DNA from: Nitrosopumilus sp. | GTDB taxonomy: Archaea > Thermoproteota > Nitrososphaeria > Nitrososphaerales > Nitrosopumilaceae | Assembly: GCA_963667665.2 (NCBI GenBank) | Contig: OY763927.2 | Span: 928,001 to 992,000 of the forward strand | Reading direction: 5' to 3' | Length of the DNA: 64,000 bases | In this document: in pieces, positions 20,865-62,347 of the stretch | Position numbering within the stretch: the stretch's first letter is position 1 | How the letters are laid out: every line of letters begins with the position of its first letter | Notes under the pieces: generated by a model | Seen by the model: only the letters and a program-made list of their open reading frames with translations | The model's database searches: none | What the model was told of the DNA's origin: nothing | Position numbers and translations under genes: made by a program

Positions 20865-21146
20865 TGTGAGCTGGAGCACGACACGCTGCTACGGCAGAGG
20901 AAACTCCTCCCTCCATACAGGAAATGTGATCTGGAGATAGATAATCAGAGATGATTGGCAACGGAGCAGAAAAAAATCCAATATGGCGCACAATGATGGC
21001 AAAACCTGAGATTTCCATAAAAGGAATGAAAAAAGCCGACCCACATGGAGCAAGGCCAAACAGAACTCAAGGTTCCTGTACCAAGTTCAGGTAGGCTGCA
21101 AAGCGGAATATCGTGAAAACAGAAGGAGGGTTACTCCCAGCACACA
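20865..21146 (+). ncRNA. rnpB: Archaeal RNase P RNA
   Basis: GAGGAAACTCCTCCC near the 5' end, GAGCAAGGCCAAA, and AACAGAAGGAGGGTTAC at the 3' end (P4 pairing); terminal complementarity TGTGAGCTGG / CCAGCACACA; GC-rich. Confidence 0.93.
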
Positions 21147-36467: not shown

Positions 36468-36544
36468 TGGTGGGACCGGCGAAATTTGAATTCGCGACCT
36501 CTGCGTCCCAAACGCAGAATCATACCAAGCTAGACCACGATCCC
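36468..36544 (-). tRNA. tRNA-Pro(TGG), intronless, CCA encoded
   Basis: GGGATCG..CGGTCCCA-CCA acceptor; anticodon arm CTGCG-TTTGGGA-CGCAG; T loop TTCAAAT. Confidence 0.95.
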
Positions 36545-47118: not shown

Positions 47119-47138
47119 ATGCCAAATTCAGGCACAAA

Positions 47139-48074
47139 TTACTTGAAAAACGTGACTACAAGATATGCAACATAACCTATAGCCAAACAAACACCCATGG
47201 CTCTATTGATAATTCCAGTTTTCAGAGCAATCAGTAATGAAATGCTAAAGATAATCATTATTGCATAATCAACATAAACATCAGCGCCAATCATTACACC
47301 TCCAAGTGCAGCACCAATTCCCATTATCATCAAGATGTTGTAGATATTACTTCCAATAATGGTTCCAATACCAATATCTGCATGACCCTTTCTAATTGCA
47401 ATTATTGATGTTATTAATTCGGGAAGAGAAGTTCCAATTGCAATTACAGTTAACCCAATAATTTTTTCTGATAATCCAAACTCGTGTGCTAAAATTACAG
47501 CATTATCAACTGTAAGAATTGCGCCAACATACAAAAGTGCAATACCTATTCCAATTAATCCTACAGATTTTAGATATATGTTAGTTTTTTCTTTTTCAGT
47601 GTTCTCTTTGTTTTCCTCTCTATGTTTCATTGCATCTTTGAATGTATAAAATGCAAATACCCCCAATCCGCCAAGTAATAATATTCCATCATAATTAGAA
47701 AGTTCACCATCAACTGAGAGTAAAACAAGTAAAAGAGAAACGCCCAACATGATTGGAATTTCTTTTCGCAAAATAGATTTTCTTACTGCTAAAGGAATAA
47801 GCATTGCAGACACACCAATCACCATTCCAATGTTTGCAATATTACTTCCAATAACATTTCCCAGAATAATTGCACTGTGTTCACCTGCTGCAGCAACACT
47901 AGCAGCAAGTTCTGGAGTTGAAGTACCATACGCTACAATAGTCATCCCTATTACAAGATTACTTATTCTGAATTTTTTTGCAATGTTTACACCGCCGTTT
48001 ACTAACCAATTTCCGCCAAAACATAACATTACTAATCCAACTACAGTTAAAATTGCACTTACTGCTACTTCCAC
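47139..48074 (-). CDS. Calcium/sodium antiporter (YrbG family)
   Basis: Two alpha repeats GTSTPE..GSNIAN and GTSLPE..GSNIYN. Confidence 0.93.
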   Translation of the reverse strand: MEVAVSAILTVVGLVMLCFGGNWLVNGGVNIAKKFRISNLVIGMTIVAYGTSTPELAASVAAAGEHSAIILGNVIGSNIANIGMVIGVSAMLIPLAVRKSILRKEIPIMLGVSLLLVLLSVDGELSNYDGILLLGGLGVFAFYTFKDAMKHREENKENTEKEKTNIYLKSVGLIGIGIALLYVGAILTVDNAVILAHEFGLSEKIIGLTVIAIGTSLPELITSIIAIRKGHADIGIGTIIGSNIYNILMIMGIGAALGGVMIGADVYVDYAIMIIFSISLLIALKTGIINRAMGVCLAIGYVAYLVVTFFK

Positions 48075-48249: not shown

Positions 48250-48597
48250 ATGATGCGAACAAGACTAACATATGTACCACTAGAAGTAGCTGACCAATTC
48301 GAAGATTTCATCATAGAAAGAGATGTGCAAATACTTGATGCAGTAAAAGCAAGAACACGAGATTACAGTACACTATCACTGTTGAAGCTGTTGTATCAGC
48401 TTAGAGGAAATCCTATGACATTCTCAAATTTGTATTCAAAGTCAAAGATTAGAATGAAGAAATCATTTTTGAATTATCTACATCTGTGTGTGAATTACAA
48501 CTTTATCAAAAAAGAGCCAGTAGGGCCAAATGTAATCTATACAATTACAGACAAAGGACGAACTATGTTGAATCTCTTTATCAACAAAGAGTTGTAA
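48250..48597 (+). CDS. Winged-helix DNA-binding protein
   Basis: LLKLLYQL..PMTFSNLY..FLNYLHLC..FIKK..YTITDKGR wHTH pattern. Confidence 0.8.
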   Translation: MMRTRLTYVPLEVADQFEDFIIERDVQILDAVKARTRDYSTLSLLKLLYQLRGNPMTFSNLYSKSKIRMKKSFLNYLHLCVNYNFIKKEPVGPNVIYTITDKGRTMLNLFINKEL

Positions 48598-48646
48598 AAG
48601 AACATAAAGATAATTTTAGAAAATATATTTTTTTATTTTTAGCGAC

Positions 48647-50341
48647 TTAATAGTAATGATGCATTTGTCTTTGTTCTAATCCTTCTTGCTCAAAGTGATT
48701 GTGAGACTTTCCACCATCATGATGAGCATGAACTACTCCATCAATATGACAATGGGTATTGTCAATCAAATTCTTCATGAACACATCATCTACATTCAGT
48801 ATCATGTTAGCAACTTCAACTGCAGTTTTGAAAACTTGTTGTTTAACAACTACTGTTTCAATAATGTCAGATGATGATACGTCAGATATCTTTCTAGTGT
48901 TAGAATTTATTCCATACCATCTTATCTTGCCATTCAATGTTGCAAATTTTGCTCGAAATTGTGTTAATGTATCTAACACATCCATTCCCACATTCTGTGC
49001 TAATGTTAATGGTATTTCATCTACAGCATCTGCAAATCTTTGTATTACAATTTGTTCCTTACCTTCAACAGTTACAGATTGCTTTCTAATTTTTTGTGCA
49101 ACTATTCCTTCAACAGAGCCAGCACCATATACAATGAATGGATGTTCAATGAAATTTCTTAATACATAAAATGCATTCAAAGCATTTCTGTGAAATTCAT
49201 CTAGAAATCGTTTTGAGTTGGCCCTCAATAACAAAGTTACAGATTTTGGATTGTTTCCACCTTCCACAAAAACCATTTTATCTCCACCTACAGTCTTCTC
49301 ATACACTCTTTTTGCAAAACCTAATTCATCGTTAGATATTTTCTCAATATTTTTACAGATCTCAGCACCAGTCGCCTTTTCTAGCCACCATAAATCATTG
49401 TACTTTACTCGCCGCATTGAGATAATACCATGTTTTGCAAGAGCTTCTTGAACAAACTCATTAACTCCTTTCCTAGATATTACGACATTAGCCCCCGAAT
49501 CTACAATATTTTTTACAAGTGCAAGTAAGTCTGTGTTTTCTTGGTTAAGGAATTGGTTCATCTGTTTGGGAGAGTCTATTTCTATCTCTGCCTCCGTTCT
49601 TGTTCTCATTGGTTCTAATGATTCATTAATTAACAGAATCTTGGCATTGTGAATAGTTCTAGGCATTGCAGAACTATCTATTGTTTTATCAATCACAGTA
49701 CCTTTGATCAATTGTATTTCTGTAGCATTTCCTATTTTTTCTTCAATTTTTATGTCATCAATATCTATCTGCCCTCTTTCCAAGTTGGCAATATCACATA
49801 CAGCCTCAATGATAATATCTACAATCTTTGTATTTTCTTCTTGTAAATCAAAAATTGCTTTTCCCTCTAAACATGTAGTTAGTAATTGTCGCATTATTTT
49901 TCTGTCTCTTCTGTTTGATTTTATCTTAATTTCATCCAATGTTTCTAAAGCACAATCTAAACTTTGATTATAACCGCGAGTAATTGTAGCAACAGGAATT
50001 CCAATTTTTAATAATTCTTCAGCATGTTTGAGTAAACTACCAATCAAAACAGCTGTAGATGTTGTACCATCTCCAACATGAGTATCAACGGTGTTAATAG
50101 ATTCTACAACTGATTTAGCTGCAGGATGATCAACATCAACTTTTCTCAAAAACGCACCACCGTGACTTGTAATTGTATCTTCTCCAAGTATGTCAATGTA
50201 TATTTTTTCCATACCGCGCGGACCAAGAGATGTTTTAACTATTTCCGTAACAAGTTTACCTGAAATTAAATTATACATTTGTGATTCTTGTAATCCAATA
50301 CGTGAAATATCTTGATCAAGTAAACCAGGGTATTTCATCAC
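48647..50341 (-). CDS. Divergent group II chaperonin (thermosome-like) with a His-rich C-terminus
   Basis: TSLGPRGM, HPAA, GDGTTS, LAQNVGMD, ILNVDD; tail THCHIDGVVHAHHDGGKSHNH..MHHYY. Confidence 0.88.
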   Translation of the reverse strand: MMKYPGLLDQDISRIGLQESQMYNLISGKLVTEIVKTSLGPRGMEKIYIDILGEDTITSHGGAFLRKVDVDHPAAKSVVESINTVDTHVGDGTTSTAVLIGSLLKHAEELLKIGIPVATITRGYNQSLDCALETLDEIKIKSNRRDRKIMRQLLTTCLEGKAIFDLQEENTKIVDIIIEAVCDIANLERGQIDIDDIKIEEKIGNATEIQLIKGTVIDKTIDSSAMPRTIHNAKILLINESLEPMRTRTEAEIEIDSPKQMNQFLNQENTDLLALVKNIVDSGANVVISRKGVNEFVQEALAKHGIISMRRVKYNDLWWLEKATGAEICKNIEKISNDELGFAKRVYEKTVGGDKMVFVEGGNNPKSVTLLLRANSKRFLDEFHRNALNAFYVLRNFIEHPFIVYGAGSVEGIVAQKIRKQSVTVEGKEQIVIQRFADAVDEIPLTLAQNVGMDVLDTLTQFRAKFATLNGKIRWYGINSNTRKISDVSSSDIIETVVVKQQVFKTAVEVANMILNVDDVFMKNLIDNTHCHIDGVVHAHHDGGKSHNHFEQEGLEQRQMHHYY

Positions 50342-50449
50342 TTTTAGCCTCCTTTTAGATATTAAAACATGCTTACTGACGAATTTAATTTACCAAAAAT
50401 AAAGAACACAAAATAAAACGAACAGTAAATTGTTTATTATTTGATTTTA

Positions 50450-52054
50450 CTACGTTACTTCCTTACTTGTAGCATCATCAGGTCCGGGTGTGTCAGGTCC
50501 TGGTGTATTAGAGCCAGGTCCACCTGCACTTGTCGCTGAAGTATCATTTTGGAAGTGTAACAAATCTTCTCCGGCAATTACATCTTCTTCAGGTGGTACA
50601 TAGTCGCGTACATCGTGTCTTGCTTTTCCTGGATACTTTCCTTGGGTTGCTTGTGCTACTATAAAGAACAAAGCAAATGCAATGATAGGAGGTATCATTG
50701 TATCCAATCCTGCCCATTCTTCTGGCATTGTAAAGAAGAATGCAAATCGAATTAGTGAACCAACAACAAGAGCTACAACGGCTGCGGGCATGTTTGCCTT
50801 TTTCCAGAACAAACCTAATGTGAGAGGAGCAAATGCTCCGGCAAAAACTATGTCAAATGCTAAGATGAGATAAATTCCAGGAGCTGGAACAAAGTAACCG
50901 ATAGCAGTTCCAACTATCATCATTGGAATAATTACAACACGAGTAACTTTGAGTAATTGACTATCACTCCAATTTGGTTTGCCCATCCATCGTCTTCGGA
51001 TAATTCTCTGCATCATATTTCTTGAAATTACACTGGAAATTGCCAATAGACCACCACTGGCAGTAGACATTGATGCTCCAACTACGCCCATTAGTATTGC
51101 TGCACCAATTGCAAATGGCAATACTTCTGTAGATAGTAAAGGTAAAGCCATGTTTGGATCAATATCTATTGGAAGATAGAAGAATGCTACAATTCCTAAC
51201 ATGCTAGTTGGAATTACTGTAAACATTGTAAGTGCGCCACCCATCAATGCACCTCTTTGTGCTGTTTTCGGGTTCTTAGCTGAAAATACTCGCTCCATAA
51301 AGTCAAGCGCAACGATATCTCCCAATCCTAGCGCAAGAATAGCACCCCAATTAATCAGCGCGCCATTAGCCATATCATACAATCCCGATAGATCCAAAAA
51401 CGCTGGTGGAGCGTTGTTGTAAATGACATCCCATGGAGTATCTGCAAAGCCACCATAGAAGAAAAGGAAACCAGCCCAAAATGCACCAATTGCAAGATAA
51501 ACTTGGAACAGATTTGTATAAGCCGATGCAAATAATCCTCCAGCAACTGTATAGATTACCACAACTATAGCTGAAATTGCAATACCATAGAAATAATTTA
51601 TACCAAACACAACTTCCAAAATAAATCCACTAGCTGCTAAATTGCCTGCAACAAGAATTAGAAAACTAACAATCATAAGAATGCCGGAAAGACCTTCTGC
51701 TCCATTTCCAAATCTTCTGAAATAGAAATCAGGTAATGTGATCATTGACATTTTGTTTAATGGTTTAGCATAGAATGCAGCTGTTACAAACAGACATAAT
51801 CCTAAACCAATTGGAATAACTGCTCCTGCCCAAAATCCAAATTCAAATACAAGAGCAACATTGCCTAACGATGAATTTCCATCAACTGCTTGAGCTGCAA
51901 GCATAGTTCCAACCATAAACAAAGGCAAACTTTTTCCTGCAATGATCAGTCGCTTACCACTATTTTTGACTAGTTTACCTGCAAATACCCCTACTGCAAG
52001 TGTAATGATAATAAATACGGCAACAGCGATGCCAAACCCATCCATCTCCACCAT
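50450..52054 (-). CDS. Sodium:solute symporter (SSS/SLC5), not DUR3 type
   Basis: AGKSLP, ITLPDFYFRRFG, YTVAGG, ERVFSAK, ASMST; about 13 TMs; lacks the DUR3 SAWTWAATLL signature. Confidence 0.9.
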   Translation of the reverse strand: MVEMDGFGIAVAVFIIITLAVGVFAGKLVKNSGKRLIIAGKSLPLFMVGTMLAAQAVDGNSSLGNVALVFEFGFWAGAVIPIGLGLCLFVTAAFYAKPLNKMSMITLPDFYFRRFGNGAEGLSGILMIVSFLILVAGNLAASGFILEVVFGINYFYGIAISAIVVVIYTVAGGLFASAYTNLFQVYLAIGAFWAGFLFFYGGFADTPWDVIYNNAPPAFLDLSGLYDMANGALINWGAILALGLGDIVALDFMERVFSAKNPKTAQRGALMGGALTMFTVIPTSMLGIVAFFYLPIDIDPNMALPLLSTEVLPFAIGAAILMGVVGASMSTASGGLLAISSVISRNMMQRIIRRRWMGKPNWSDSQLLKVTRVVIIPMMIVGTAIGYFVPAPGIYLILAFDIVFAGAFAPLTLGLFWKKANMPAAVVALVVGSLIRFAFFFTMPEEWAGLDTMIPPIIAFALFFIVAQATQGKYPGKARHDVRDYVPPEEDVIAGEDLLHFQNDTSATSAGGPGSNTPGPDTPGPDDATSKEVT

Positions 52055-52093
52055 GTGTTTATTGATTTGATCAAGCTATATTAGCTTTGAATT

Positions 52094-52110
52094 TTGCAAG
52101 TATAGTACGT
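52094..52110 (-). promoter_or_regulatory. Operator-like motif ACGTACTATACTTGCAA, 56 nt upstream of the SSS start
   Basis: 15/17 identity and identical spacing to the motif at 54737. Confidence 0.7.
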
Positions 52111-52317
52111 TTTATGAGGAAAAAATTATTCGTATAATACATTTTATGAAATAATTTCTATAAATTTCATGATTTTAAAGAAAACTTTTACGATCATAGT
52201 ATGAAATTCATAATTTGTAATTTACAAAAATAATTTATTTTTAAGATAATTTTTCGATCAAACATTCATTACGATTTTAATTCAAAATTTTATTAATTCA
52301 ACAATCTTGCACATATC

Positions 52318-52488
52318 GTGGATAAACAATATGCCATTGCAGTAATTCTGATTATCTTAGGACTGGGGTTAAACCAATCTGGCTCAGCTAACCCATTCTA
52401 TAGTGGTCTTGGAATAGGAGTCATAGCAATGGGAACATTTTGGGTAGTAATTAGATTAATTAAAGAACTCAAGAAAAAACAATCTTAA
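52318..52488 (+). CDS. 56-aa two-TM membrane microprotein
   Basis: Hand translation MDKQYAIAVILIILGLGLNQSGSANPFYSGLGIGVIAMGTFWVVIRLIKELKKKQS; TTTATTAA about 25 nt upstream. Confidence 0.65.
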   Translation: MDKQYAIAVILIILGLGLNQSGSANPFYSGLGIGVIAMGTFWVVIRLIKELKKKQS

Positions 52489-52536
52489 TTTTCAAAATTC
52501 ATAAAATAATATAAACACTAATTTAGAATATTTTGT

Positions 52537-53049
52537 GTGCCAGGAAAAGGATATTCTACATTTGGTATGAAACCTGTAATTACAACTAGATTACAAGAAG
52601 CAACAGACAAGAGTTATCCTGGAATGTTTCTTCCCAGTACATTAATTATCATAATGAATGAGATCAAGAGAGGATATTATTCAGTAGAATCACATAAAAT
52701 AAAATTAGATTTGTCTGGTAGATACAATACCATAACTATAAGATCAGATGTTAAAGAATGGTCAGTAGAAAATCATGAAAAACTTGGAAAAGATTATGAA
52801 GAAAGATACAATGTAAAATGCTTTACAAAATTTGTGAGTTATTTTATAGTTAACATGTTAGAATCAAAAAGTGATGCTCAAAACCATTCTATTAGTCTAA
52901 AGGAATTAGATTTCAGTTGGCTTCAAGATAAATATAAAAAACAAAAAAAGAGTCCTGAAGGAATTTCTAGTTTTGAACGATTTGCAGATAGTTACATTAA
53001 TGATTTACTGGTAAAGATTAAAGCGGCAAAAGAAATCTTAACATTATAA
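52537..53049 (+). CDS. Hypothetical protein (possible tandem ribbon-helix-helix-like units)
   Basis: 170-aa GTG ORF with a TATAAA box about 25 nt upstream. Confidence 0.7.
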   Translation: MPGKGYSTFGMKPVITTRLQEATDKSYPGMFLPSTLIIIMNEIKRGYYSVESHKIKLDLSGRYNTITIRSDVKEWSVENHEKLGKDYEERYNVKCFTKFVSYFIVNMLESKSDAQNHSISLKELDFSWLQDKYKKQKKSPEGISSFERFADSYINDLLVKIKAAKEILTL

Positions 53050-53082
53050 ATTTTATTTATAACAATTTAAATTTATAAAAAA

Positions 53083-53334
53083 TTAAAGTGGTGTCATAGT
53101 ATCAATTAATCGTGCATTAACAACATGACAATCTTTTTCTTGTATTTCAAGGTCTACAGTATATTTCAAACCATCTAGCATGAAATTAACTTGAACATCC
53201 CAAGATACTCTAGGTCCTTTTTCAGGAACTTGGAATGTTTCATTCACTCTAAAGTCACTTACGTCACCATATAATGCATTGATTATTCTACGAGACTCTC
53301 TATCGATGTCTTCTGATGTGCTAACAGCCTGCAT
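53083..53334 (-). CDS. Small hypothetical protein
   Basis: 83-aa ATG ORF with a TTTATA box upstream. Confidence 0.7.
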   Translation of the reverse strand: MQAVSTSEDIDRESRRIINALYGDVSDFRVNETFQVPEKGPRVSWDVQVNFMLDGLKYTVDLEIQEKDCHVVNARLIDTMTPL

Positions 53335-53395
53335 AACTAAACTATCAAAGAATGAATATAAAAATATTCTAATTAATTTTTCCTAGTAACAGTCA

Positions 53396-54652
53396 TCATA
53401 ATTTTGTTAGTCTTTTTAAAAATGATTCTTTATTCATTTTGTCCAACTTTTCTTGAACTTTAAATCGATGAAAAATTGCAGTTTGATTTGTAGGTTCAAG
53501 TTCTAGTGCTTTGTTGTAACATTTTAGAGACTCTTCATATTTTTTTAATAATAAAAGTAATTTTCCTTTATAGCTTATTGCATAGACGTAATTAGGATTG
53601 ATTTTTAGTGCTTTTTCACAATATTCAAGCGCCTCATCATATTTTTTTGAGTGTTCTAGAAACCACACCATAGTGCATAACGCCAGTACATTTCTTGGTT
53701 CAATCTCCAAAGCACATTCAAAATAGAATCTTGCTTTACCAAATTTTTTCAACTGAAACAAAGATGTGCCTTTACTGTAAAGTGCCTTAACATTATCAGA
53801 GTCATATTCTAAAATTTTATCGAAACACTCTATGGCTTTTTTATATAGTCGTGTTCTATCCAAGACTATTCCTTTATTGAATTGAGCATCAGTACATTTA
53901 GGATCAATTTTTAGGGCGTCATCATAAAAAACAAAAATCTCTTTGTTTGAAAATCCTGCTAAATCAAGAGTCCATCCCTTAGCCACAAGAGCTTTAGTAT
54001 TTTTCTTATCTATCTCCAGAGCTTTTGTATAGAATTTTATTGCTTCTTCATGTTTTCCTTTCTTTGTACGCTTCTGTCCTTTTTCATATAGAATGTCTGA
54101 TTGTCTAGAATCTTCATCAATAGCTTTTTGTAAGAATAGCATGGACTCTGAACTTTTTGCTAATCTTCCCAGAATCAAACTTTTGGCGTAAAGAGCAGCC
54201 GAGTTTTTTGGATTATTCAATAAAACTTGATCAATTATTGTTATAGCCTCATCATTACGCTCTAATTTACTTAAACATAATCCCATAGATGTTAATGAAT
54301 CAGAATATTGTGAATCAATTTCAAGAGATTTTTTGAAAGAAGATATTGCTTCTTCGTATTTTTCTATTTTTTCAAGTGCAAGACCTTTGTTGTATAAAGC
54401 ATCAAGACTTTTGGGATCTATAGATAAAATTTTATCAAAACAAATTATAGCATTTTGAAAATCTTCCAATTTGTATAATGTCCTGCCTTTATGAAGTTGA
54501 GCTACAATGTTTTCAGGTTCAAGTGAAATAGCCTTGTTAAATTTTAAAACAGCTTTTTTAAATTGATTGTAATAAACTGCGGTTAATCCTTGATTTAAAA
54601 AATACCATGCATTTTTTGAATTTTGTAAAATCATATTGGTATTGTCACCCAA
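53396..54652 (-). CDS. Tetratricopeptide repeat protein (start possibly ATG 54634)
   Basis: About eleven 34-aa repeats of the A.Y.KG..L.....Y..A...F...L..DP type. Confidence 0.9.
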   Translation of the reverse strand: MGDNTNMILQNSKNAWYFLNQGLTAVYYNQFKKAVLKFNKAISLEPENIVAQLHKGRTLYKLEDFQNAIICFDKILSIDPKSLDALYNKGLALEKIEKYEEAISSFKKSLEIDSQYSDSLTSMGLCLSKLERNDEAITIIDQVLLNNPKNSAALYAKSLILGRLAKSSESMLFLQKAIDEDSRQSDILYEKGQKRTKKGKHEEAIKFYTKALEIDKKNTKALVAKGWTLDLAGFSNKEIFVFYDDALKIDPKCTDAQFNKGIVLDRTRLYKKAIECFDKILEYDSDNVKALYSKGTSLFQLKKFGKARFYFECALEIEPRNVLALCTMVWFLEHSKKYDEALEYCEKALKINPNYVYAISYKGKLLLLLKKYEESLKCYNKALELEPTNQTAIFHRFKVQEKLDKMNKESFLKRLTKL

Positions 54653-54736
54653 ATGTTATGTTTATAGTTAAAACGTACATTACACATAATTGATTTTTTT
54701 AGAAAATGATGATATTTAATAATTAAAATACAATAT

Positions 54737-54753
54737 ACGTACTTTACTTGAAA
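54737..54753 (+). promoter_or_regulatory. Operator-like motif ACGTACTTTACTTGAAA, 56 nt upstream of the ureohydrolase start
   Basis: Twin of 52094-52110; lies just upstream of the TTTAATTA box. Confidence 0.7.
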
Positions 54754-54792
54754 TCTTTAATTATCAAAGTTGCACATAGAATTTGATTTAAA

Positions 54793-55908
54793 ATGGGCAT
54801 GGAATTTTATGGTGATGATTTTCAAGGTGCAGATGTTGCGCCATTTGTAGGAATTAATACATTTTTACATCTTCCTTGGGTAAAGACACACAAAGAATTA
54901 CTTGAAGCAAAACCAGACGTTGCAATTATTGGAGAGCCATTTGACTTTGGTACTACTATCCGCCCCGGAGCAAGATATGGGCCAAGAGCAATTAGAGCTG
55001 CATCTACAATTCCATCACCACCTTTTGAACGATTCAACATTGAAACGGGTGCAGACCCATTTGGAACTTTTCGAACAGTAGATTATGGAGACGTCATAGT
55101 TTCACCAGGGGATGTTATAGAATCACACAAGAGGATGACTCTAAAAGTTAAGGAAGTGTTAGAGGCAGATGGTATTCCTGTAATGCTTGGAGGAGATCAC
55201 TCAATTACTTATGCAAACGTTAGAGCATTTCAGAAAAAATACAAAAACATAGGCATGATTCATTTTGACACACACGCTGATTGTGCACCACAAGGACTAA
55301 CGGGTTTCAAGTATGATCATGGAGCACATATTAGAAGAATAATGGAGATGGGTTGTCTTAAAGGAAAGAACTACTCGCTTGTAGGTCCAAGAGGATATTG
55401 GCCAGGACGTGATTTGTACAAATGGATGTCAGACCAAGATTTCCAATGGTTTACAATGCTTGATGTTGAAGAATTAGGAATTGATGTTATTGCAAAAGAA
55501 ATAGCTGATAGAGCAAATGATGGAACAGATGCAGTCTATCTTAGTTGGGATATTGATTCTTTTGATCCTGCTTATGCACCAGGTACGGGAGAACCAGAAC
55601 CAAACGGACTTACATCAAGAGAAGGCATTAGAATGATTCGTCTATTATCAAAATCATTTGATCCTGATAGATTTGCAATGGATTTGGTAGAAATTGCTCC
55701 AGCATATGATGTCAGTGATTCAAGTTCTTACAACGGAGGAATCACATCTGGATTAGGACAAAGATTAGTTATTGAACTATTGGCAGGATTATCATTAACA
55801 AAGAGAGGTTTGGAGGGAGGAGATCCTGTAAGACCAAAGGCATACATGGGTACTGGAAACACATACAGTTTTGGTAATCCAACATCTAAAATTCCAAAGA
55901 GAGATTAA
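54793..55908 (+). CDS. Ureohydrolase (agmatinase/arginase superfamily), substrate unknown
   Basis: RPGARYGP, GGDHS, DTHAD, SWDIDSFDP, PGTGEPEPNG, VEIAP; all six metal ligands present. Confidence 0.92.
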   Translation: MGMEFYGDDFQGADVAPFVGINTFLHLPWVKTHKELLEAKPDVAIIGEPFDFGTTIRPGARYGPRAIRAASTIPSPPFERFNIETGADPFGTFRTVDYGDVIVSPGDVIESHKRMTLKVKEVLEADGIPVMLGGDHSITYANVRAFQKKYKNIGMIHFDTHADCAPQGLTGFKYDHGAHIRRIMEMGCLKGKNYSLVGPRGYWPGRDLYKWMSDQDFQWFTMLDVEELGIDVIAKEIADRANDGTDAVYLSWDIDSFDPAYAPGTGEPEPNGLTSREGIRMIRLLSKSFDPDRFAMDLVEIAPAYDVSDSSSYNGGITSGLGQRLVIELLAGLSLTKRGLEGGDPVRPKAYMGTGNTYSFGNPTSKIPKRD

Positions 55909-56303
55909 TGAAAATTGAAGTAGTGGTACAGGGAGATCCGGATATCAAGCCATTTACCAAGATATTTTATTATGAAAAATCTGATGAAACAATTTTCTTT
56001 GAATCCACACAATTAATCAAAAATCACCTATCAAACAATATGCGATTAAACATAAACGAGACACTAGGATTGTTTGTAGCTTATGTCATAACTTCGTTAA
56101 ATGAACGTAAAACAATCAACGAAATACAAAAACACATACCAGATATGCTTTTACCACATCAAGTGATGATTGGGGTTCCTGAAAGTTTGAGAAAACTAAC
56201 TTTTACAATTACAACCAAAGATATTGATAAAGAACAAATATTCATTACAACACCCATTCAAATTGTTCAATATTCTCTTGATGGACAGAAACAAACAGCA
56301 TAG
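55908..56303 (+). CDS. Urease gamma-subunit-like paralogue with an N-terminal extension
   Basis: RLNINET..ERKTINEI..LLPHQVMIGVPESL aligns by eye with Ure[30 protein letters not shown]. Confidence 0.7.
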   Translation: MKIEVVVQGDPDIKPFTKIFYYEKSDETIFFESTQLIKNHLSNNMRLNINETLGLFVAYVITSLNERKTINEIQKHIPDMLLPHQVMIGVPESLRKLTFTITTKDIDKEQIFITTPIQIVQYSLDGQKQTA

Positions 56304-56317
56304 GAGTAATGGAATAA

Positions 56318-57076
56318 TTGATTGAAACAATAATGGGAATGTTACAAGCCAACAACCCTTTTTTAATTATAATTGCTGGTTTGATGATTGGATTATTGCA
56401 TGCTTTTGAGCCTGATCATCTTAGTGCAGTTTCCACTCAACTATTAAAAAACAACAATAATTCAAAGAGTTCAAAAAAACGAGACTTGCAAAATCTTACC
56501 ATTATCTCTTCTTTAAGAGGAGCACTTTGGGGAATGGGACATACATCAAGTATTATTTTAATCGGACTATTGATTGCAGGTTTATCATTAAACATACCTG
56601 ATGATTTTTTTATTAGTGCAGAAGTGCTTGTTGGTTTAATGTTGATTACTTTAGCAATTTTTACATTTACAAACAAAAGTATCTTTAAACAAAAACATGT
56701 TCATCCTCACACACATTCAGACGGAATTTCTCACACACATTCTCATGAACATAATGAAAATCACAAACATGGTCACAAAGCATACCTAATTGGTTGTGTT
56801 CACGGTATTGCAGGTAGTGGTAGTCTTGTTGCATTATTTGCATCTACAATGAATGGTTTTGATATGATGATTTATTTTCTAATTTTATTTGGCATAGGCA
56901 GTATAATTGGTATGACTGTTGCTAGCGGCGTTATGGGATTACCATTTATTTTATTATCAAAAGTTAATTCTATTACTAAATATCTAAGATACACAATAGC
57001 TAGTATAACTTTCATAATTGGTCTTAATATTATAATTACAATTGGATTAGATAATAAATTATTTTCTTTAAACTAA
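56318..57076 (+). CDS. Nickel/cobalt transporter (UreH/NiCoT-like)
   Basis: GLLHAFEPDH, WGMGH, His-rich loop HVHPHTHSDGISHTHSHEH, GCVHGIAGSG. Confidence 0.88.
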   Translation: MIETIMGMLQANNPFLIIIAGLMIGLLHAFEPDHLSAVSTQLLKNNNNSKSSKKRDLQNLTIISSLRGALWGMGHTSSIILIGLLIAGLSLNIPDDFFISAEVLVGLMLITLAIFTFTNKSIFKQKHVHPHTHSDGISHTHSHEHNENHKHGHKAYLIGCVHGIAGSGSLVALFASTMNGFDMMIYFLILFGIGSIIGMTVASGVMGLPFILLSKVNSITKYLRYTIASITFIIGLNIIITIGLDNKLFSLN

Positions 57077-57095
57077 ACATATAGTTTGAAAACTA

Positions 57096-58808
57096 TTAAA
57101 ACAAATTGTATAGTCTTGACATAGAAACTTTGTCGGCAGGATCTGTTGTTGCAATTTTCCCATCAACTTTAACTTCATATGTTTCAGGATTTACCTCAAT
57201 GTTTGGAGTAAGATCATTATACAACATGTCTTTCTTTCCAATAGAACGGCAATTTTTCACAGGAACCAATTTCTTTTTTGAATTGATTTCAGATTCAATA
57301 CCCTTGTCTAGTGCCAGTTGAGATGTGAATGTTACAGAAGTGGAATATTTTGTTTGGCCAAGGGCTCCAAACATAGGACGATACATGACAGGTTCAGTAG
57401 TAGGAATTGATGCATTAGGATCACCCATAAGGGAATATGCAATAAAACCGCCTTTTATGATCATTTTTGGTTTGACTCCAAAAAATGCAGGGGACCAAAT
57501 TACAATATCAGCTAATCGTCCAGGCTGCAATGAGCCCACATAATCTGAAACTCCATGAGTTATGGCAGGATTTATTGTAATTTTAGCAAGATAACGCTTC
57601 ACTCTGAAATTATCATTTTGAGCATTGTCTTCAGGTAATGCACCAGCCATCTTTTTCATTTTATCAGCAGTCTGCCAATTTCTGGTTGTAACTTCTCCTA
57701 CTCTTCCCATAGCTTGACTATCAGAAGACATCATACTCAACACACCAATATCATGTAGTACATCCTCTGCAGCAATAGTCTCACCCCTAATTCTAGACAT
57801 TGCAAAGGAAACATCTTCAGGTACTGATGAGTTTAGATGATGGCAAACCATCATCATGTCAAGATGTTCTGCTAGTGTGTTTACTGTAAATGGTCTTGTA
57901 GGATTTGTAGATGAAGGAAGTATATTTTCTTCACCTGCAATTTTCATAATATCTGGAGCATGTCCACCTCCAGCACCTTCAGTATGATAAGTATGAATTG
58001 TTCTTCCTGCAATTGCTTCAATTGTGTCATCAACAAATCCACATTCATTTAGAGTATCAGTATGGATTGCAACTTGGGTATCAGTTTTGTCTGCAACCCT
58101 CAAAGCAGAATCAATCGTAGCAGGAGTTGTACCCCAATCTTCATGTAGTTTTAGTCCACAAGCTCCTGCTTCAATTTGTTCAAGTAATGCAGATTCACGA
58201 GAGTCATTTCCTTTTGCAAGAAATCCAAAGTTTAGTGGTAATTCATCAACAGACTCAATCATTCTATGAATATTCCATTTACCAGGAGTGCATGTTGTTG
58301 CATTTGTTCCATCAGCTGGACCAGTTCCACCGCCAATCATCGTGGTGGTACCATTACATATTGCATGTATTGCTTGTTGAGGAGAAATAAAATGAATATG
58401 TGAATCAATTGTTCCAGGAGTACAAATGGTATGCTCGCCGGCAATTATCTCAGTGTTAGAAGATATTACCATATCAATATCATCCATGATGTCAGGATTA
58501 CCAGCATTTCCTATTCCAACAATTTTTCCATCTTTTACTCCAATGTCTGCTTTGATAATTCCCAAAATAGGATCCATTACAATTGCGTTAGTAATTACAA
58601 GATCAAGTGATTCTGCTCTAGATACGCCACTTGCTTGCCCCTGCCCATCTCTTATGCTCTTTCCTCCTCCAAATACAGCCTCATCACCATACGTAGTCAA
58701 GTCTTTTTCAATTTCAATAATCAAATCAGTATCTGCAAGACGGATTCGGTCACCCACAGTAGGACCAAACAAATCAACATGTGTTTTTCTTGGAATATCT
58801 AGAGTCAT
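57096..58808 (-). CDS. ureC: Urease subunit alpha
   Basis: [56 protein letters not shown]. Confidence 0.99.
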
Positions 58809-59182
58809 TGGGTCATTCCTTTGAATCCTTTTTCAGTAGCTTTTTTGAATGCCTCTTCTTGCTTTTCTTCTAGACTTCCATTCACCAGTCCACTAAATCC
58901 ATAAACAATTTTTTTTCCTCCAAATTCCGTTAGTTCAATTTCTTTTGTATCTCCGGGTTCAAATCTAACTGATGTGCCGGCAGGAATATTGAGATGGTAT
59001 CCGTAAGATTGTTTCCTTTGAAATTCAAGAGCTTTGTTTACTTCAAAAAAGTGTGTATGTGATCCTACCTGTATTGGTCTATCTCCAGTATTTCTAACAC
59101 TAACAGATGTAGTTGATTTTCCTACGTTAGCAATGATAGGTTCATTAGATGAGAAGTATTCGCCAGGAATCATAGTTATCAC
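58805..59182 (-). CDS. ureB: Urease subunit beta
   Basis: [34 protein letters not shown]. Confidence 0.98.
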
Positions 59183-59481
59183 ACAATAGGGTCATGAATT
59201 GTTACAAGTTTAGTTCCATCTTCAAATGTTGCCTCCACTTGAATAGATGTAATTAATTCTACAACTCCAGGTAAAACATCATCTTTTGATAGAACATTTT
59301 TTCCAGAGCTCATAAGTTCCGGAACAGATCTTCCATCTCTTGCACCTTCTAAGATATGATCAGCAAGAATAGATACAGCTTCAGGATGATTAAGTTTCAA
59401 TCCACGATTTTTTCTTCTTCGAGCAAGTTCTGATGTAACAAAAACATTTAGTTTTTCTAATTCTCTAGGAGTAAGCATCAT
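59179..59481 (-). CDS. ureA: Urease subunit gamma
   Basis: [35 protein letters not shown]; start moved to 59481. Confidence 0.98.
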
Positions 59482-59566
59482 TGAATTGGATAGTGTATCA
59501 GAGTATTTAATCATTAAAACGGTAAAATCTAACAAAGTATAACTCTGTCAAAAAACAAAGTTACTT

Positions 59567-60052
59567 GTGTTAGAAGTTAATTCCCCTATAGGAAATATTT
59601 TTCATGATAAAGAATTTGATAATTTGAAAAATGAGAATTTTGAAAGACTCAAGATTTCCCGAATTGAATTAGAAAAAAGAATTTTGAGAAGAAAGACAGA
59701 TCGAGGAACAGATATTGGTTTGAATTTAGACCCAGGAGTGAAACTTTGCAATGGAGATATTATCAAAAATGGAGATACAAAAATTGTTGTGGAGCAATTA
59801 CCAGAAAAAATAATTACAGTTAAACTAAAAAATGAAAAGATGACAGATGTAATGGTGCTGTTAGGGCACATCATTGGAAACAGACACAGACCGATATCCA
59901 TTCAAGGAGATGAGATTTCATTTCCAATTCAAGCAGATTCAGAAAAGGAAATATTTACAAAATTATTTCAGAGCATTATCAACCATATCAACATTACAGT
60001 AGAAGAACAGATATTTTCCCCTCAATTAGGTGCAGATGTACATGAACATTGA
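59567..60052 (+). CDS. ureE: Urease accessory protein UreE
   Basis: GHIIGNRH; short VHEH tail. Confidence 0.93.
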   Translation: MLEVNSPIGNIFHDKEFDNLKNENFERLKISRIELEKRILRRKTDRGTDIGLNLDPGVKLCNGDIIKNGDTKIVVEQLPEKIITVKLKNEKMTDVMVLLGHIIGNRHRPISIQGDEISFPIQADSEKEIFTKLFQSIINHINITVEEQIFSPQLGADVHEH

Positions 60053-60743
60053 CGAGATAGAACAAGAGTTAGGGGTAATGCAGTTATCTGACTCATTTTT
60101 TCCTACAGGTATTTTTGCTACTTCAAATGGATTAGAATTTCTTTTCACAGAAAAAAAAATTCAAGATATGGCAGACTTGATAGAAATTATCAGAATTAAC
60201 ATTACTCAGCAGATAGGACCATCAGATTGTGTTGCACTTGCAAATGCATTTGATAGTGCAAACAAATGTGATTTTGAAAAAGTGATTGAAGTAGACAATA
60301 TTGCTTTTGCCACTAAATCAATTAAAGAAATACGCAATTCATCAGTAAGATCGGGGGTTCAATTAGTAAAATGTGTTTCAGAATTTATAACAGATGATGA
60401 AATTTTAAATCAATACAAAAACAACATAACAAAAAACAATGCACATGGGATATTTCCTGTGGCATTTGCAATTTGTTGTAATGCATTAAAAATTAAAAAA
60501 GAAAAAAGCATGACGATGTTATTGTATGGTTTTACTGTTGGGGTTGTAGGTGCAGCATTACGATTAGGATTAATTCAACATTTTGAAGGTCAAAAAATAA
60601 TTCACAATATAAAACCAATCATCAGTCAAACTATCAAAGAATATTCTAATGAATCACTTTTTGAAATGTGGCAATTTGCACCCCAAATAGATATTGTTCA
60701 AATGTCACATGAAAAAATGGATTCAAAAATGTTTATTACATAA
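60042..60743 (+). CDS. ureF: Urease accessory protein UreF
   Basis: [21 protein letters not shown]....KMFIT. Confidence 0.95.
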
Positions 60744-60760
60744 AAATTAGATTTTTCATC

Positions 60761-61417
60761 ATGACTCACATCGCAAGAATCGGTATTGGTGGACCAGTTG
60801 GTTCTGGTAAAAGCATGTTAATTGAACGCTTGGTGCCAATGTTGGCTGAAAAGGGATACAGTGTAAGTATAATCTCAAATGATGTGATTTCAAAAGAAGA
60901 TGCTGACAGAATGAGGGATAATTTAGCTACGAAAAAAGGACTACTTCCAGAAAATTTAGTGATTGGTCTTGCAACTGGCGGTTGTCCACATACTGCAATC
61001 AGAGAAGATCCTTCCATGAATCTTGCAGTAATAGAAGAAATAGAATCAGAGCATCCTGATCTTGACCTTATAATTATTGAAAGTGGAGGAGATAACATTA
61101 CAACTACATTCAGTCCCATTCTTGCAGATTATTCTATTTACATAGTTGATGTTGCAGGAGGAGACAAGTATCCAAGAAAAGGCGGATTAGGAATTGAGAG
61201 TTGTGATCTTTTAGTAATTAACAAGATAGATCTTGCCATGATGGTTGGAGCAGACCTTGATATCATGAAAAGAGATGCAGAAAAGATTAGAAAAGAAAAA
61301 CCATTTGAATTTATCAATTGTAAAACAGATGAAGGTATAATGAAGATAACTGAACACATTATTCATGATGTCTTGTTTGATTCTGCACCAAAATCAGAAC
61401 TTACACAAAAGGTGTGA
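60761..61417 (+). CDS. ureG: Urease accessory GTPase UreG
   Basis: [32 protein letters not shown]. Confidence 0.98.
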
Positions 61418-61420
61418 TTA

Positions 61421-62347
61421 TTGAATAAACTAGAATACTACACACCAAATGACATACCAAAAGAAATTCAGACATATGATTCAGAAATAAAACAATTAGG
61501 AGTTGGAAAATCAGGAAAAGTAGGCATTCTTGATTTGGAACTTCAAAAAAACAGTAATGGTAAAACAGTTGTTACAAAACAATTTTCTCAAGTTCCGTTA
61601 CAATTTCAACGAGCATTATATCCTGAAAACTCACTTCCTGAAATGGCATATCTTTATGTTATTTCTCCATCAGGAGGAGTTCTACAAGGGGATAGATACA
61701 GAATGGATGTGTCATTAAAAAATAAGGCCATCGCTCATATGACAACTCAAGGTGCCACTAGCATCTACAGTATGGATTCAAATTTTGCATCACAAATTGT
61801 AAACATCACACTTGATGAGAATTGTTATTTAGAATACATCCCTGATCAAATAATACCAAACAAGAATTCCAGGTATTATCAAAAAGTTAATCTGAATATT
61901 CACGATAATGCAACTTTGGTATATTCAGAAATTTTAACTCCTGGAAGAGTAGCCATGGATGAATCTTTTGAATATGATATTTGTTACCTAAGAACACACT
62001 GTAAGAACCAAGACAAAAAAATAAGGTTTTTAGAAAATACAAAAATTGAGCCAAAAAAACAAAAATTAAAAAATTTTGGAATATTAGGCAAATACAACAC
62101 AGTTGGAACAGTTTACATCTTGACTAGAAAAGAAAATGTAATTGAACTAGAAAATTCAATAAATGAAAGAATCAAAAAGACAGATGCAATGTCTATTGGA
62201 ACATCCATTCTTCCAGATGAATCCGGAATAGTCATCAGAATTTTAGGAGATAAGACAGATAATATTTCTGATGTAATTTTCAAGATACTTGAAATTAGTA
62301 GAAAGAAAATTCTTGGTGCATCAATTAGTAAAATAAGAAAAAACTAG
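61421..62347 (+). CDS. ureD: Urease accessory protein UreD
   Basis: SPSGGVLQGD, TTQGAT, LEYIPD, PGRVAMDESF. Confidence 0.95.
   Translation: MNKLEYYTPNDIPKEIQTYDSEIKQLGVGKSGKVGILDLELQKNSNGKTVVTKQFSQVPLQFQRALYPENSLPEMAYLYVISPSGGVLQGDRYRMDVSLKNKAIAHMTTQGATSIYSMDSNFASQIVNITLDENCYLEYIPDQIIPNKNSRYYQKVNLNIHDNATLVYSEILTPGRVAMDESFEYDICYLRTHCKNQDKKIRFLENTKIEPKKQKLKNFGILGKYNTVGTVYILTRKENVIELENSINERIKKTDAMSIGTSILPDESGIVIRILGDKTDNISDVIFKILEISRKKILGASISKIRKN

What the first reader, a model, noticed from the sequence alone, without database searches (positions are those of the whole stretch)
48250..62347. Candidate guanidino-compound-to-ammonia pathway linked to urease in an ammonia-oxidising archaeon
Seen: one island holds an SSS symporter, a ureohydrolase with intact metal ligands, a UreA-like gene, a Ni transporter, ureABC/EFGD, a chaperonin and a wHTH regulator. 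Established: ureohydrolases release urea from guanidino compounds, and urease converts urea to ammonia, the energy substrate of AOA. The symporter lacks the DUR3 urea-transporter signature (it has AQAVDGNSSLGN instead), and no dedicated urea transporter is visible in the window. Inference: the cell imports an organic guanidino compound (agmatine, guanidinobutyrate/propionate, taurocyamine, methylguanidine or similar) and makes urea internally. That would be an organic-N route to nitrification distinct from the comammox guanidinase system.
Basis: partly seen in the sequence, partly recalled or inferred. Interest (0 to 1): 0.88.

Follow-up and report, generated by a model that had tools for sequence, protein, structure and literature searches.

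The report
Urease-linked symporter and ureohydrolase module
Beside the urease genes of this marine ammonia-oxidising archaeon lies a conserved gene set, a transporter plus a urea-releasing type of enzyme with its own helper proteins, that probably turns an unidentified nitrogen-rich compound into urea and so into ammonia, the cell's fuel.

Summary
The island is real, but it is two units: the urease operon (ureCBA/ureEFGD) and a separate nine-gene module. The module holds a third thermosome, a 534-aa SSS symporter, a 56-aa membrane ORF, an RHH-like protein, an 83-aa protein, a TPR protein, an arginase-family hydrolase, a UreA-like protein and a Ni-permease-like protein.

- **Symporter is not DUR3.** It gives no match to solved DUR3 structures, whereas the long SSS beside ureC in relatives scores 644 bits.
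- **Hydrolase is not housekeeping agmatinase.** It is a third paralogue, closest to guanidinobutyrase and guanidine hydrolase. It occurs in 66 of 151 family genomes, 64 of which have urease.
- **The two genes stay linked.** They co-occur in 63 genomes and stay within 0.6-6.5 kb in 9 of 10 genomes (24 kb in the tenth) where ureC is 0.09-1.3 Mb away.

The same pair occurs in Halobacteria, only in genomes with urease. In Aquificota the hydrolase sits in urease clusters with its own ABC importer beside a Urt-type set.

Substrate and chemistry are untested. An invariant Glu replaces the guanidinase Trp.

Verdict: a probable new import-to-urea route feeding urease, not found in the literature searched.

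The parts
48647..50341 (-). Third, divergent thermosome (group II chaperonin) paralogue; part of the module
   Evidence: PF00118 at 448.5 bits. G000 and G110, which carry the module, have 3 chaperonin genes, the third scoring about 450-460 bits against about 630. Four module-less genomes have 2. It is syntenic with the SSS in 12 of 14 relatives.
50450..52054 (-). 534-aa sodium:solute symporter of a non-DUR3 type; the proposed importer
   Evidence: PF00474 at 96.9 bits. It is the only SSF gene in the genome. Best solved relatives are choline transporter CHT1 (90 bits) and vSGLT, with no DUR3 hit. Orthologues occur in 64 of 151 genomes, 63 of which hold the hydrolase. It forms a clade with haloarchaeal hydrolase-linked SSS. 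RNA-library contigs cover 50415-52044.
52318..52488 (+). Small conserved ORF: 56 aa with two hydrophobic helices
   Evidence: Read from the sequence. tblastn finds it between the SSS and the 170-aa gene in 11 of 14 relatives at 36-89% identity. Function unknown.
52537..53049 (+). 170-aa protein found only in Nitrososphaerota; possibly a ribbon-helix-helix regulator
   Evidence: No Pfam or NCBIfam match. The AF2 model (pLDDT 65) shows two strand-helix-helix units. Atlas leads to RHH_3, ParG and NikA all score below 0.9. Present in 11 of 14 syntenic loci.
53083..53334 (-). 83-aa highly conserved protein of unknown function
   Evidence: Present in 14 of 14 syntenic loci at 56-83% identity (alignment A4). 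The AF2 model (pLDDT 79) is one helix on a four-stranded sheet. No PDB match at E<=0.001. RNA-library contigs cover it.
53396..54652 (-). TPR-repeat protein; possibly a co-chaperone or scaffold
   Evidence: TPR_1 at 211.7 bits. Present in 13 of 14 syntenic loci. A TPR protein also follows the orthologue in Halorientalis locus L071.
54793..55908 (+). Arginase-family ureohydrolase, the third paralogue, 371 aa; the proposed urea-releasing enzyme
   Evidence: PF00491 at 267.9 bits. It scores below both NCBIfam agmatinase cut-offs. Best solved relatives are GbuA (174 bits) and GdmH (170 bits). Metal ligands are intact, and an invariant Glu267 stands where guanidinases have Trp and most relatives have Thr. 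It is 77-95% identical across the family, then drops to 35% for the paralogues. RNA-library contigs cover 54801-55936.
55908..56303 (+). Divergent urease-gamma (UreA)-like protein; its start overlaps the hydrolase stop
   Evidence: PF00547 at 28.3 bits. hhalign against true UreA gives probability 96.5%. It lies directly downstream of the hydrolase in 12 of 14 relatives and was not found in G013 or G080.
56318..57076 (+). His-rich membrane protein; putative Ni/Co permease
   Evidence: His-rich loop. Only a weak DsbD_2 Pfam match. Atlas feature match 0.95-0.98 to NicO/UreH-like transporters. In the module in 12 of 14 relatives. Beside the ure operon in 2 of 12 ureC loci.
57096..59535 (-). ureC, ureB, ureA (urease structural genes)
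   Evidence: Pfam Urease_alpha/Amidohydro_1, Urease_beta and Urease_gamma.
59567..62347 (+). ureE, ureF, ureG, ureD (urease maturation genes)
   Evidence: Pfam UreE_N/C, UreF, cobW (UreG) and UreD.
48250..48597 (+).
   Evidence: Only sub-threshold winged-helix matches, E 0.007-0.03. No tblastn match at 50% coverage or more in the 14 module loci. RNA-library contigs cover it.

Best explanation
The window holds a urease operon and, fused next to it, a separate conserved module. The core of that module is a Na+-coupled SSS importer and a binuclear-metal ureohydrolase of a distinct subfamily.

Proposed mechanism:
1. The symporter takes up an external compound that carries a guanidino or amidino group. 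Its identity is unknown. Candidates are free guanidine or methylguanidine, agmatine, and guanidino acids such as guanidinoacetate, guanidinopropionate, guanidinobutyrate or taurocyamine.
2. The hydrolase cleaves it to urea plus a co-product.
3. Urease converts the urea to 2 NH3 + CO2.
4. The ammonia feeds ammonia oxidation and assimilation.

The dedicated thermosome, the TPR protein, the UreA-like protein and the Ni-permease-like protein are read as folding, metal-supply or assembly helpers of the hydrolase. The 170-aa RHH-like protein is read as its regulator.

Shown: gene content, intact catalytic ligands, family placement, synteny, co-occurrence with urease in three phyla, and presence in RNA libraries.

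Inferred: that urea is the product, that the symporter's substrate is the enzyme's substrate, and all helper roles.
For: Enzyme type
- PF00491 at 267.9 bits.
- All six metal ligands plus the T, H and E catalytic residues align with the N. inopinata guanidinase 9FEK. The residue list comes from PMC11410670 (passages read).
- The best solved relatives all release urea: GbuA 174 bits, GdmH 170, 9FEK 166, GpuA 147.

Not housekeeping
- The genome has two other paralogues, both best matched to archaeal agmatinase 3PZL.
- The scores lie below both agmatinase cut-offs.

Dependence on urease
- Nitrosopumilaceae sample of 151 genomes: orthologue in 66, UreC in 83, both in 64. The two exceptions are 76% and 85% complete. 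UreC without the orthologue occurs in 19.
- Halobacteria class sample of 121 genomes: orthologue in 9, all with UreC, against 34 of 121 overall.
- A further 10 of 10 haloarchaeal holders without nearby ure genes have UreC elsewhere in the genome.

The importer follows the enzyme, not urease
- SSS and hydrolase co-occur in 63 genomes, with 3 and 1 singletons.
- In 10 genomes where ureC lies 0.09-1.3 Mb away, the pair stays 0.6-6.5 kb apart in 9 and 24 kb in one.
- Five of 5 urease-positive genomes without the module carry DUR3-type SSS at ureC and no 534-aa type.
- An SSS homologue lies within 10 kb of the orthologue in 42 of 51 loci found with P0128.
- The two SSS groups form one clade, SH-aLRT 100.

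Not a DUR3.

Bacteria
- In 3 of 3 Aquificota holders (of 178 searched), the enzyme is followed by an NMT1/TauA-type ABC importer inside a ure cluster.
- In G447 that cluster also holds a Urt-type set.

Expression
- Contigs at 99% identity or more from four RNA libraries of one study cover the SSS and the hydrolase almost gene for gene.
Against: - No activity, product or transport was measured.
- The guanidinase signature Trp is replaced by Glu, and the Thr of GbuA and GpuA is also absent. No known substrate can therefore be assigned.
- No guanidine riboswitch was found in the three bacterial loci.
- No gene for using an organic co-product is conserved in the module.
- G000 and G013 have no other recognisable urea transporter, and there the module sits exactly where DUR3 usually lies. 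That is what the rival 'SSS carries urea' would predict.
- Co-occurrence counts come from related genomes, many of them MAGs, and are not independent.
- One counted genome (G092) is unpublished.
- Contigs from RNA libraries show presence only, not expression level, and come from one study.
Confidence: 0.6

Rival explanations
1. The 534-aa symporter is a third kind of urea (or urea-analogue) transporter, the 'unknown transporter' of AOA that have urease but no dur3 or utp. The hydrolase only salvages urea from an internal guanidino metabolite such as agmatine or arginine.
For: - G000 and G013 have urease but no DUR3-type SSF, and G000 also has no UT or Urt. In both, the module sits directly beside ureC.
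- DUR3 belongs to the same superfamily.
- PMC10753782 (passages) lists five AOA with urease and no detected urea transporter, and notes urea use by one of them.
Against: - The symporter's presence and position follow the hydrolase, not ureC.
- It coexists with 2-3 DUR3 genes in G110, G030, G014 and G065.
- It is only 23-27% identical to the DUR3 types and has no DUR3 match.
- In Aquificota the enzyme has its own ABC importer beside a Urt-type set.
- A dedicated chaperonin and an enzyme kept at 77-95% identity seem excessive for salvage.
Confidence: 0.17
2. The tie to urease concerns metal loading, not urea. The hydrolase needs nickel and borrows UreDEFG, perhaps through the UreA-like protein, and its product need not be urea.
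For: - A Ni-permease-like gene and a UreA homologue sit directly downstream of the enzyme.
- GdmH and metformin hydrolase in the same superfamily are Ni enzymes (PMC11410670 passages; abstracts of PMC11399263 and PMC11271267 in the listing).
Against: - No homologue of the UreA-like gene or the Ni permease was found by tblastn in any of the 51 P0128-derived loci, yet Halobacteria show the same restriction to urease genomes and Aquificota the same placement in ure clusters.
- G013 and G080 lack the UreA-like gene.
- All the closest characterised relatives release urea.
Confidence: 0.1
3. The extra thermosome and symporter are a deep-sea (pressure) adaptation unrelated to nitrogen supply, as was suggested for a hadal MAG.
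For: [quoted passage not shown]
Against: - The module occurs in 66 of 151 genomes from 20 of 27 sampled genera (my tally from the rows) and tracks urease.
- Homologous enzyme-symporter pairs occur in Halobacteria, a group known (recalled, not tested here) from salt lakes and salterns.
Confidence: 0.03

Closest known systems
Guanidinobutyrase GbuA and guanidinopropionase GpuA of Pseudomonas aeruginosa (PDB 3NIO, 3NIP)
   Same: Same arginase fold and ligand set. These are among the best-scoring solved relatives: GbuA 174 bits is the top hit and GpuA 147 bits the fourth. They release urea from an imported guanidino acid.
   Different: Local identity is roughly 40% by eye. Thr is replaced by an invariant Glu267. 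There are a 7-residue insertion (S312-G316 invariant), a PSPP insertion and a C-terminal extension. The enzyme is partnered with an SSS importer and with urease.
Ni-dependent guanidine hydrolase: GdmH of Synechocystis (7ESR, 7OI1) and the comammox guanidinase (9FEK)
   Same: Close in score, 170 and 166 bits. It feeds nitrifiers through urea plus ammonia in comammox (PMC11410670). A nickel link is plausible here because a Ni-permease-like gene lies in the module.
   Different: The signature Trp313 is Glu here. The importer is an SSS, not an APC permease or ABC system. No guanidine riboswitch was found. PMC11410670 states that no guanidine-degradation genes were found in AOA (passage).
DUR3 urea symporters of AOA and eukaryotes
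   Same: Same SSS superfamily, and located near urease in this genome.
   Different: No detectable match to DUR3 structures. It is 534 aa against 658-840 aa, 23-27% identical, and in a separate clade. Its distribution follows the hydrolase.
SpeB agmatinase (polyamine synthesis), described as ubiquitous in Thaumarchaeota
   Same: Same superfamily. PMC10753782 counts '2-3 copies of speB' in most AOA (passage), which probably includes this gene.
   Different: It scores below the agmatinase cut-offs. It is 28-35% identical to the two true SpeB-like paralogues. It is restricted to urease genomes.
The extra thermosome plus 'unique Na+/solute symporter' near urease in hadal MAG MTA1 (PMC7265257)
   Same: Probably the same module, seen in part.
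   Different: It was read as a pressure adaptation. The passages I read mention neither the hydrolase nor the link to urease distribution. Supplementary Figure S7b could not be seen.

Membership tests
Arginase/ureohydrolase superfamily (PF00491) | Profile match above the gathering score | tested here: met
   267.9 bits against a cut-off of 22.
Arginase/ureohydrolase superfamily (PF00491) | Six binuclear-metal ligands (His, Asp, His, Asp, Asp, Asp) | tested here: met
   H136, D159, H161, D163, D253 and D255 align with H182, D207, H209, D211, D299 and D301 of 9FEK. They are invariant in 24 orthologues.
SpeB agmatinase (TIGR01230, NF002564) | Score at or above the curated cut-off | tested here: not met
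   157.2 against 174.3, and 205.8 against 302.
GdmH-type guanidinase | Signature residues T105, H222, W313 and E344 (PMC11410670, Extended Data Fig. 4 legend) | tested here: not met
   T, H and E are kept, but W313 aligns with Glu267. No Trp at this column in a quick alignment of 132 sequences.
GdmH-type guanidinase | Nickel dependence | not testable with these tools
   Only a neighbouring Ni-permease-like gene points that way.
GbuA/GpuA guanidino-acid hydrolases | Closest sequence relatives and the same product (urea) | tested here: inconclusive
   GbuA gives the best PDB score, 174 bits, but GdmH is nearly equal at 170. No curated model is available, and no tree with characterised references could be built because PDB sequences are not held as ids.
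DUR3 urea symporter | Homology to solved DUR3 proteins | tested here: not met
   No DUR3 hit at E<=0.001 for P0002. The control SSS from G110 scores 637-644 bits.
Sodium:solute symporter family (PF00474) | Profile match above the gathering score | tested here: met
   96.9 bits against 22.8. Below all NCBIfam equivalog cut-offs (PutP, PanF, ActP).
Urease gamma subunit (UreA) | Profile match; equivalog score | tested here: inconclusive
   Pfam 28.3 against 23.9 is met, and hhalign gives probability 96.5%. NCBIfam equivalog scores of 26.1 against 123 and 24.2 against 82.3 are not met. This is a divergent paralogue, not a urease subunit by score.
NicO/HoxN-type Ni/Co transporter | Profile match to PF03824 | tested here: inconclusive
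   No PF03824 match, only DsbD_2 at 20.8 bits. Language-model feature match 0.95-0.98 to NicO/UreH-like clusters.
Thermosome (PF00118) | Profile match; housekeeping copy | tested here: met
   448.5 bits. It is a third copy that is absent from four module-less genomes.

The most novel reading that the evidence does not exclude
The enzyme is a second, independently evolved nickel guanidinase or alkylguanidinase. The UreA-like protein docks it to the urease maturation machinery (UreDEFG) for nickel loading, or to urease itself for urea channelling. Many marine ammonia-oxidising archaea (module found in 66 of the 151 Nitrosopumilaceae genomes sampled) would then oxidise free guanidine-type nitrogen, yielding three NH3 per guanidine with no organic remainder. 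This substrate is currently credited among nitrifiers to comammox, with partial conversion by some AOB.
Probability: 0.2. Interest if true: 0.92.

Novelty: new variant of a known kind. Interest (0 to 1): 0.8.

Why it matters
Marine ammonia-oxidising archaea drive much of ocean nitrification. Recent work treats urea use as ureC plus dur3 (PMC12686405, passages).

In this sample, 64 of 83 urease-bearing Nitrosopumilaceae genomes carry an extra importer-hydrolase module. That points to a further organic nitrogen substrate that is converted to urea inside the cell.

If confirmed, it would:
- add a source term to marine nitrification budgets;
- explain urease genes in strains that lack urea transporters;
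- define a new ureohydrolase subfamily shared with Halobacteria and Aquificota;
- give an example of a dedicated group II chaperonin attached to one metabolic module.

The question can be tested directly with cultured strains and a simple urea-release assay.

Tried and rejected
- **Complex prediction, hydrolase (A3) with UreA-like (A2):** 'no answer', score 0.00. This is no evidence either way.
- **83-aa protein:** the fold search found no PDB match at E<=0.001, only generic helix-on-sheet folds.
- **170-aa protein:** the model is of low confidence (pLDDT 65). I ran no fold search on it. The RHH reading is a lead only.
- **Guanidine riboswitches:** none in the window or in the three Aquificota loci, at gathering score or at E<=0.5.
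- **Names in the large protein collection:** the symporter's relatives are labelled only generically, as 'sodium:solute symporter' or 'Na+/proline symporter'.
- **RNA libraries:** parts of the island without RNA-library contigs (thermosome, TPR, most of ureC) prove nothing.
- **Tree with characterised enzymes:** I used score ranking and printed alignments instead.
- **SSS tree:** the deep branches are long and unreliable. Rows from L050 (in-frame TGA) and L089 did not pass my ORF filter. L042, L044, L046 and L047 were not entered into the tree script and were left out.
- **Pressure-adaptation reading of the thermosome:** rejected on its distribution.
- **Literature:** ten full-text searches found no paper that links Nitrosopumilus or Thaumarchaeota with a guanidino-compound hydrolase.
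- **Supplements (closed):** several may bear on this. They are Palatinszky Supplementary Table 1 and the grey branches of Fig. 2a, Zhong Fig. S7b, and Fig. 3 of PMC10753782.

Full report
**What is there.** The window is G000:C1:928001-992000, from a 1.89-Mb genome of about 33% G+C that is 99.97% complete.
- a thermosome
- an SSS symporter
- an arginase-family hydrolase
- a UreA-like gene whose start overlaps the hydrolase stop
- a His-rich membrane protein
- ureCBA and ureEFGD

The 'wHTH' ORF has only sub-threshold matches and is not conserved beside the module.

**Two units, not one island.** I compared 14 relatives by tblastn. The following set recurs as a block, with some rearrangement: thermosome, SSS, (56-aa ORF), 170-aa gene, 83-aa gene, TPR, hydrolase, UreA-like, Ni permease.
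- In G030, G014, G110, G080, G006, G065, G135, G125, G083 and G052, ureC lies 0.09-1.3 Mb from the hydrolase (coordinates).
- In those ten genomes the symporter stays 0.6-6.5 kb from the hydrolase in nine, and 24 kb away in G083.
- Around ureC in 12 genomes, the operon is ureEFGD/ureABC followed by a long SSS gene. No thermosome, TPR or hydrolase is present there. A Ni-permease paralogue appears in only two of the 12.
- In G000, G013 and G041 the module abuts the ure genes. In G000 and G013 it sits directly beside ureC, the position a DUR3-type gene occupies downstream of ureC in the loci (in G041 a weak SSS match still lies there).

**The symporter is not a DUR3.**
- The 663-aa SSS next to ureC in G110 scores 637-644 bits to three solved 'urea-proton symporter DUR3' entries.
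- The window's 534-aa protein has no DUR3 hit at E<=0.001. Its best solved relatives are the choline transporter CHT1 (90 bits) and vSGLT.
- It is 23-27% identical to the DUR3 types.
- Urease-positive genomes without the module (G038, G142, G001, G012, G073) have only long, ureC-adjacent SSF genes.
- G110, G030, G014 and G065 have those genes plus the 534-aa type. G000 and G013 have only the 534-aa type.
- G000 also lacks the UT family and any UrtA-like protein over the cut-off.
- In a 35-row tree, the AOA 534-aa type and the haloarchaeal hydrolase-linked SSS form one clade (SH-aLRT 100), apart from the DUR3-type clade (100). The deep branches to E. coli PutP, PanF and ActP are long and unreliable.

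**The hydrolase is a distinct, urease-dependent paralogue.**
- G000 has three arginase-family genes.
- Two are best matched to the Thermoplasma agmatinase 3PZL, at 168 and 127 bits.
- The island copy is best matched to GbuA (174), GdmH (170), the comammox guanidinase 9FEK (166) and GpuA (147). It scores below both NCBIfam agmatinase cut-offs.
- Across 151 family genomes its orthologues are 77-95% identical. The next matches drop to 35%.

Counts, verified by script:

| Feature | Genomes of 151 |
|---|---|
| Hydrolase orthologue | 66 |
| UreC | 83 |
| Hydrolase and UreC | 64 |
| Hydrolase without UreC | 2 (G097, 76% complete; G106, 85% complete) |
| UreC without hydrolase | 19 |
| Symporter | 64 |
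| Symporter and hydrolase | 63 |
| Hydrolase only | 3 (G018, G106, G133) |
| Symporter only | 1 (G119, 60% complete) |

These genomes are related to one another and many are MAGs, so the counts describe the sample and are not independent trials. G092 (unpublished) is among the holders.

In a class-wide sample the orthologue was found in family f1 (24 of 80) and f3 (1 of 3). It was not found in 67 genomes of the other families.

**Active site.**
- Aligned to 9FEK, all six metal ligands are kept. So are the Thr, His and Glu residues that PMC11410670 lists as important.
- The Trp that marks guanidinases is Glu267 here.
- GbuA, GpuA and proclavaminate amidinohydrolase have Thr at this position.
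- In a quick alignment of 132 full-length sequences (the query plus 131 cluster representatives), Glu occurs in 3 and Thr in 79.
- Glu267, a 7-residue insertion (S312-G316) and a PSPP insertion are invariant in 24 orthologues from three phyla.

The enzyme therefore belongs to none of the characterised specificity groups.

**Beyond AOA.** The nearest full-length relative in 1.84 billion representatives is P0128, 49% identical, with the same Glu and the same insertion. It led to 51 loci: 49 in Halobacteria, one in an Aquificaceae MAG, and one unrelated hit at 33% identity.
- A homologue of the 534-aa symporter (34-40% identical) lies within 10 kb in 42 of the 51 loci. Urease genes lie within 10 kb in 8.
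- In the two loci examined, an AbrB/MazE-PhoU regulator lies between the symporter and the hydrolase. In Halorientalis a TPR protein follows the hydrolase.
- Ten of 10 haloarchaeal holders without nearby ure genes have UreC elsewhere in the genome.
- In a class sample of 121 genomes, 9 hold the orthologue and all 9 have UreC, against 34 of 121 overall. The centre genome was chosen for having the orthologue, so 8 of 8 is the fair figure.
- In Aquificota, 3 of 178 genomes hold it. In all three it is followed by an NMT1/TauA-type ABC importer inside a urease cluster.
- In G447 the same cluster also has a Peripla_BP_5 binding protein, two BPD_transp_2 permeases and two ATPases. From recall, that is the architecture of the Urt urea transporter. 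In that genome, the enzyme's own importer is thus unlikely to be the urea transporter.

**Helper genes.**
- Module-bearing G000 and G110 have three thermosome genes. The third is divergent, at about 450-460 bits against about 630.
- Four genomes without the module have two thermosome genes.
- PMC7265257 noted such an extra thermosome near a 'unique' symporter and urease in one hadal MAG, and read it as a pressure adaptation (passages).
- The UreA-like family is a true but distant UreA homologue. It lies directly after the hydrolase in 12 of 14 relatives.
- The Ni-permease assignment rests on the His-rich loop and on feature similarity only.
- Roles for these genes in folding, metal loading or docking are inference.

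**Expression.** Four metatranscriptome runs from one study hold contigs at 99% identity or more. These cover 50415-52044 (symporter) and 54801-55936 (hydrolase). They also cover the 83-aa gene, the 115-aa ORF and ureG. The contigs end near gene boundaries. They show presence in RNA libraries, not expression level.

**Literature.**
- PMC11410670 states that no guanidine-degradation genes were found in AOA.
- PMC12625717 found none in its floodplain MAGs.
- PMC10753782 counts '2-3 copies of speB' in most AOA, and lists AOA that have urease but no detected urea transporter.
- PMC6790972 treats agmatinase as ubiquitous in the group.
- PMC12686405 analyses only ureC and dur3.

For all of these I read passages found by term search, not the whole papers. 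Ten searches found no description of this module, and supplements were closed.

**Reading.** The best reading is import of a urea-yielding guanidino or amidino compound, hydrolysis to urea, and urease-dependent release of ammonia (confidence 0.6). The substrate is open:
- Free guanidine or an alkylguanidine is attractive for three reasons. No gene for handling a co-product is conserved, a nickel link is plausible, and, from recall, guanidine ABC importers in bacteria are of the NitT/TauT type.
- Against that, the guanidinase Trp is missing and no guanidine riboswitch was found.

The main rival is that the symporter carries urea (0.17).

Noticed in passing
window 58365-58655 (+), antisense to ureC; also L122 17052-17331 and L123 1-318: An Rfam '5_ureB_sRNA' match scores 51 bits (gathering score 40) on the strand opposite ureC. 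It recurs at lower scores in Aquificota ureC. It most likely reflects conserved ureC coding sequence rather than a real antisense RNA.
   Followed up: partly
window 52318-52488 (+): An unannotated 56-aa ORF with two hydrophobic helices lies between the symporter and the 170-aa gene. It is conserved in 11 of 14 relatives. It may be a small membrane partner of the symporter.
   Followed up: partly
G110:C1:1206845-1221031 (L029, L031, L034): This relative carries three DUR3-type genes around ureC. Two of them have identical scores, which suggests a recent tandem duplication. G000 and G013 have none.
   Followed up: no
window 50450-52054, 54793-55908 and 57096-58808: The symporter (40.2% G+C), the hydrolase (38.9%) and ureC (37.9%) are richer in G+C than the window as a whole (32.6%). 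Their neighbours in the module are at 28-35%. PMC10753782 reports a similar excess for dur3.
   Followed up: no
window 43337-48074: Upstream lie two radical-SAM genes (one CofH/MqnC-like), a TldD/PmbA peptidase and a Na+/Ca2+ exchanger. The two radical-SAM genes and the exchanger also lie upstream of the ure operon in G001 (L053), so this flank may be the ancestral site of the urease operon.
   Followed up: no
window 20866-21145 (+) and 36471-36544 (-): Archaeal RNase P RNA (189 bits) and one tRNA gene.
   Followed up: no
L122 6791-7096 and 11345-11650 (G447): This Aquificota urease cluster carries two ureA copies that flank the hydrolase-ABC transporter unit.
   Followed up: no
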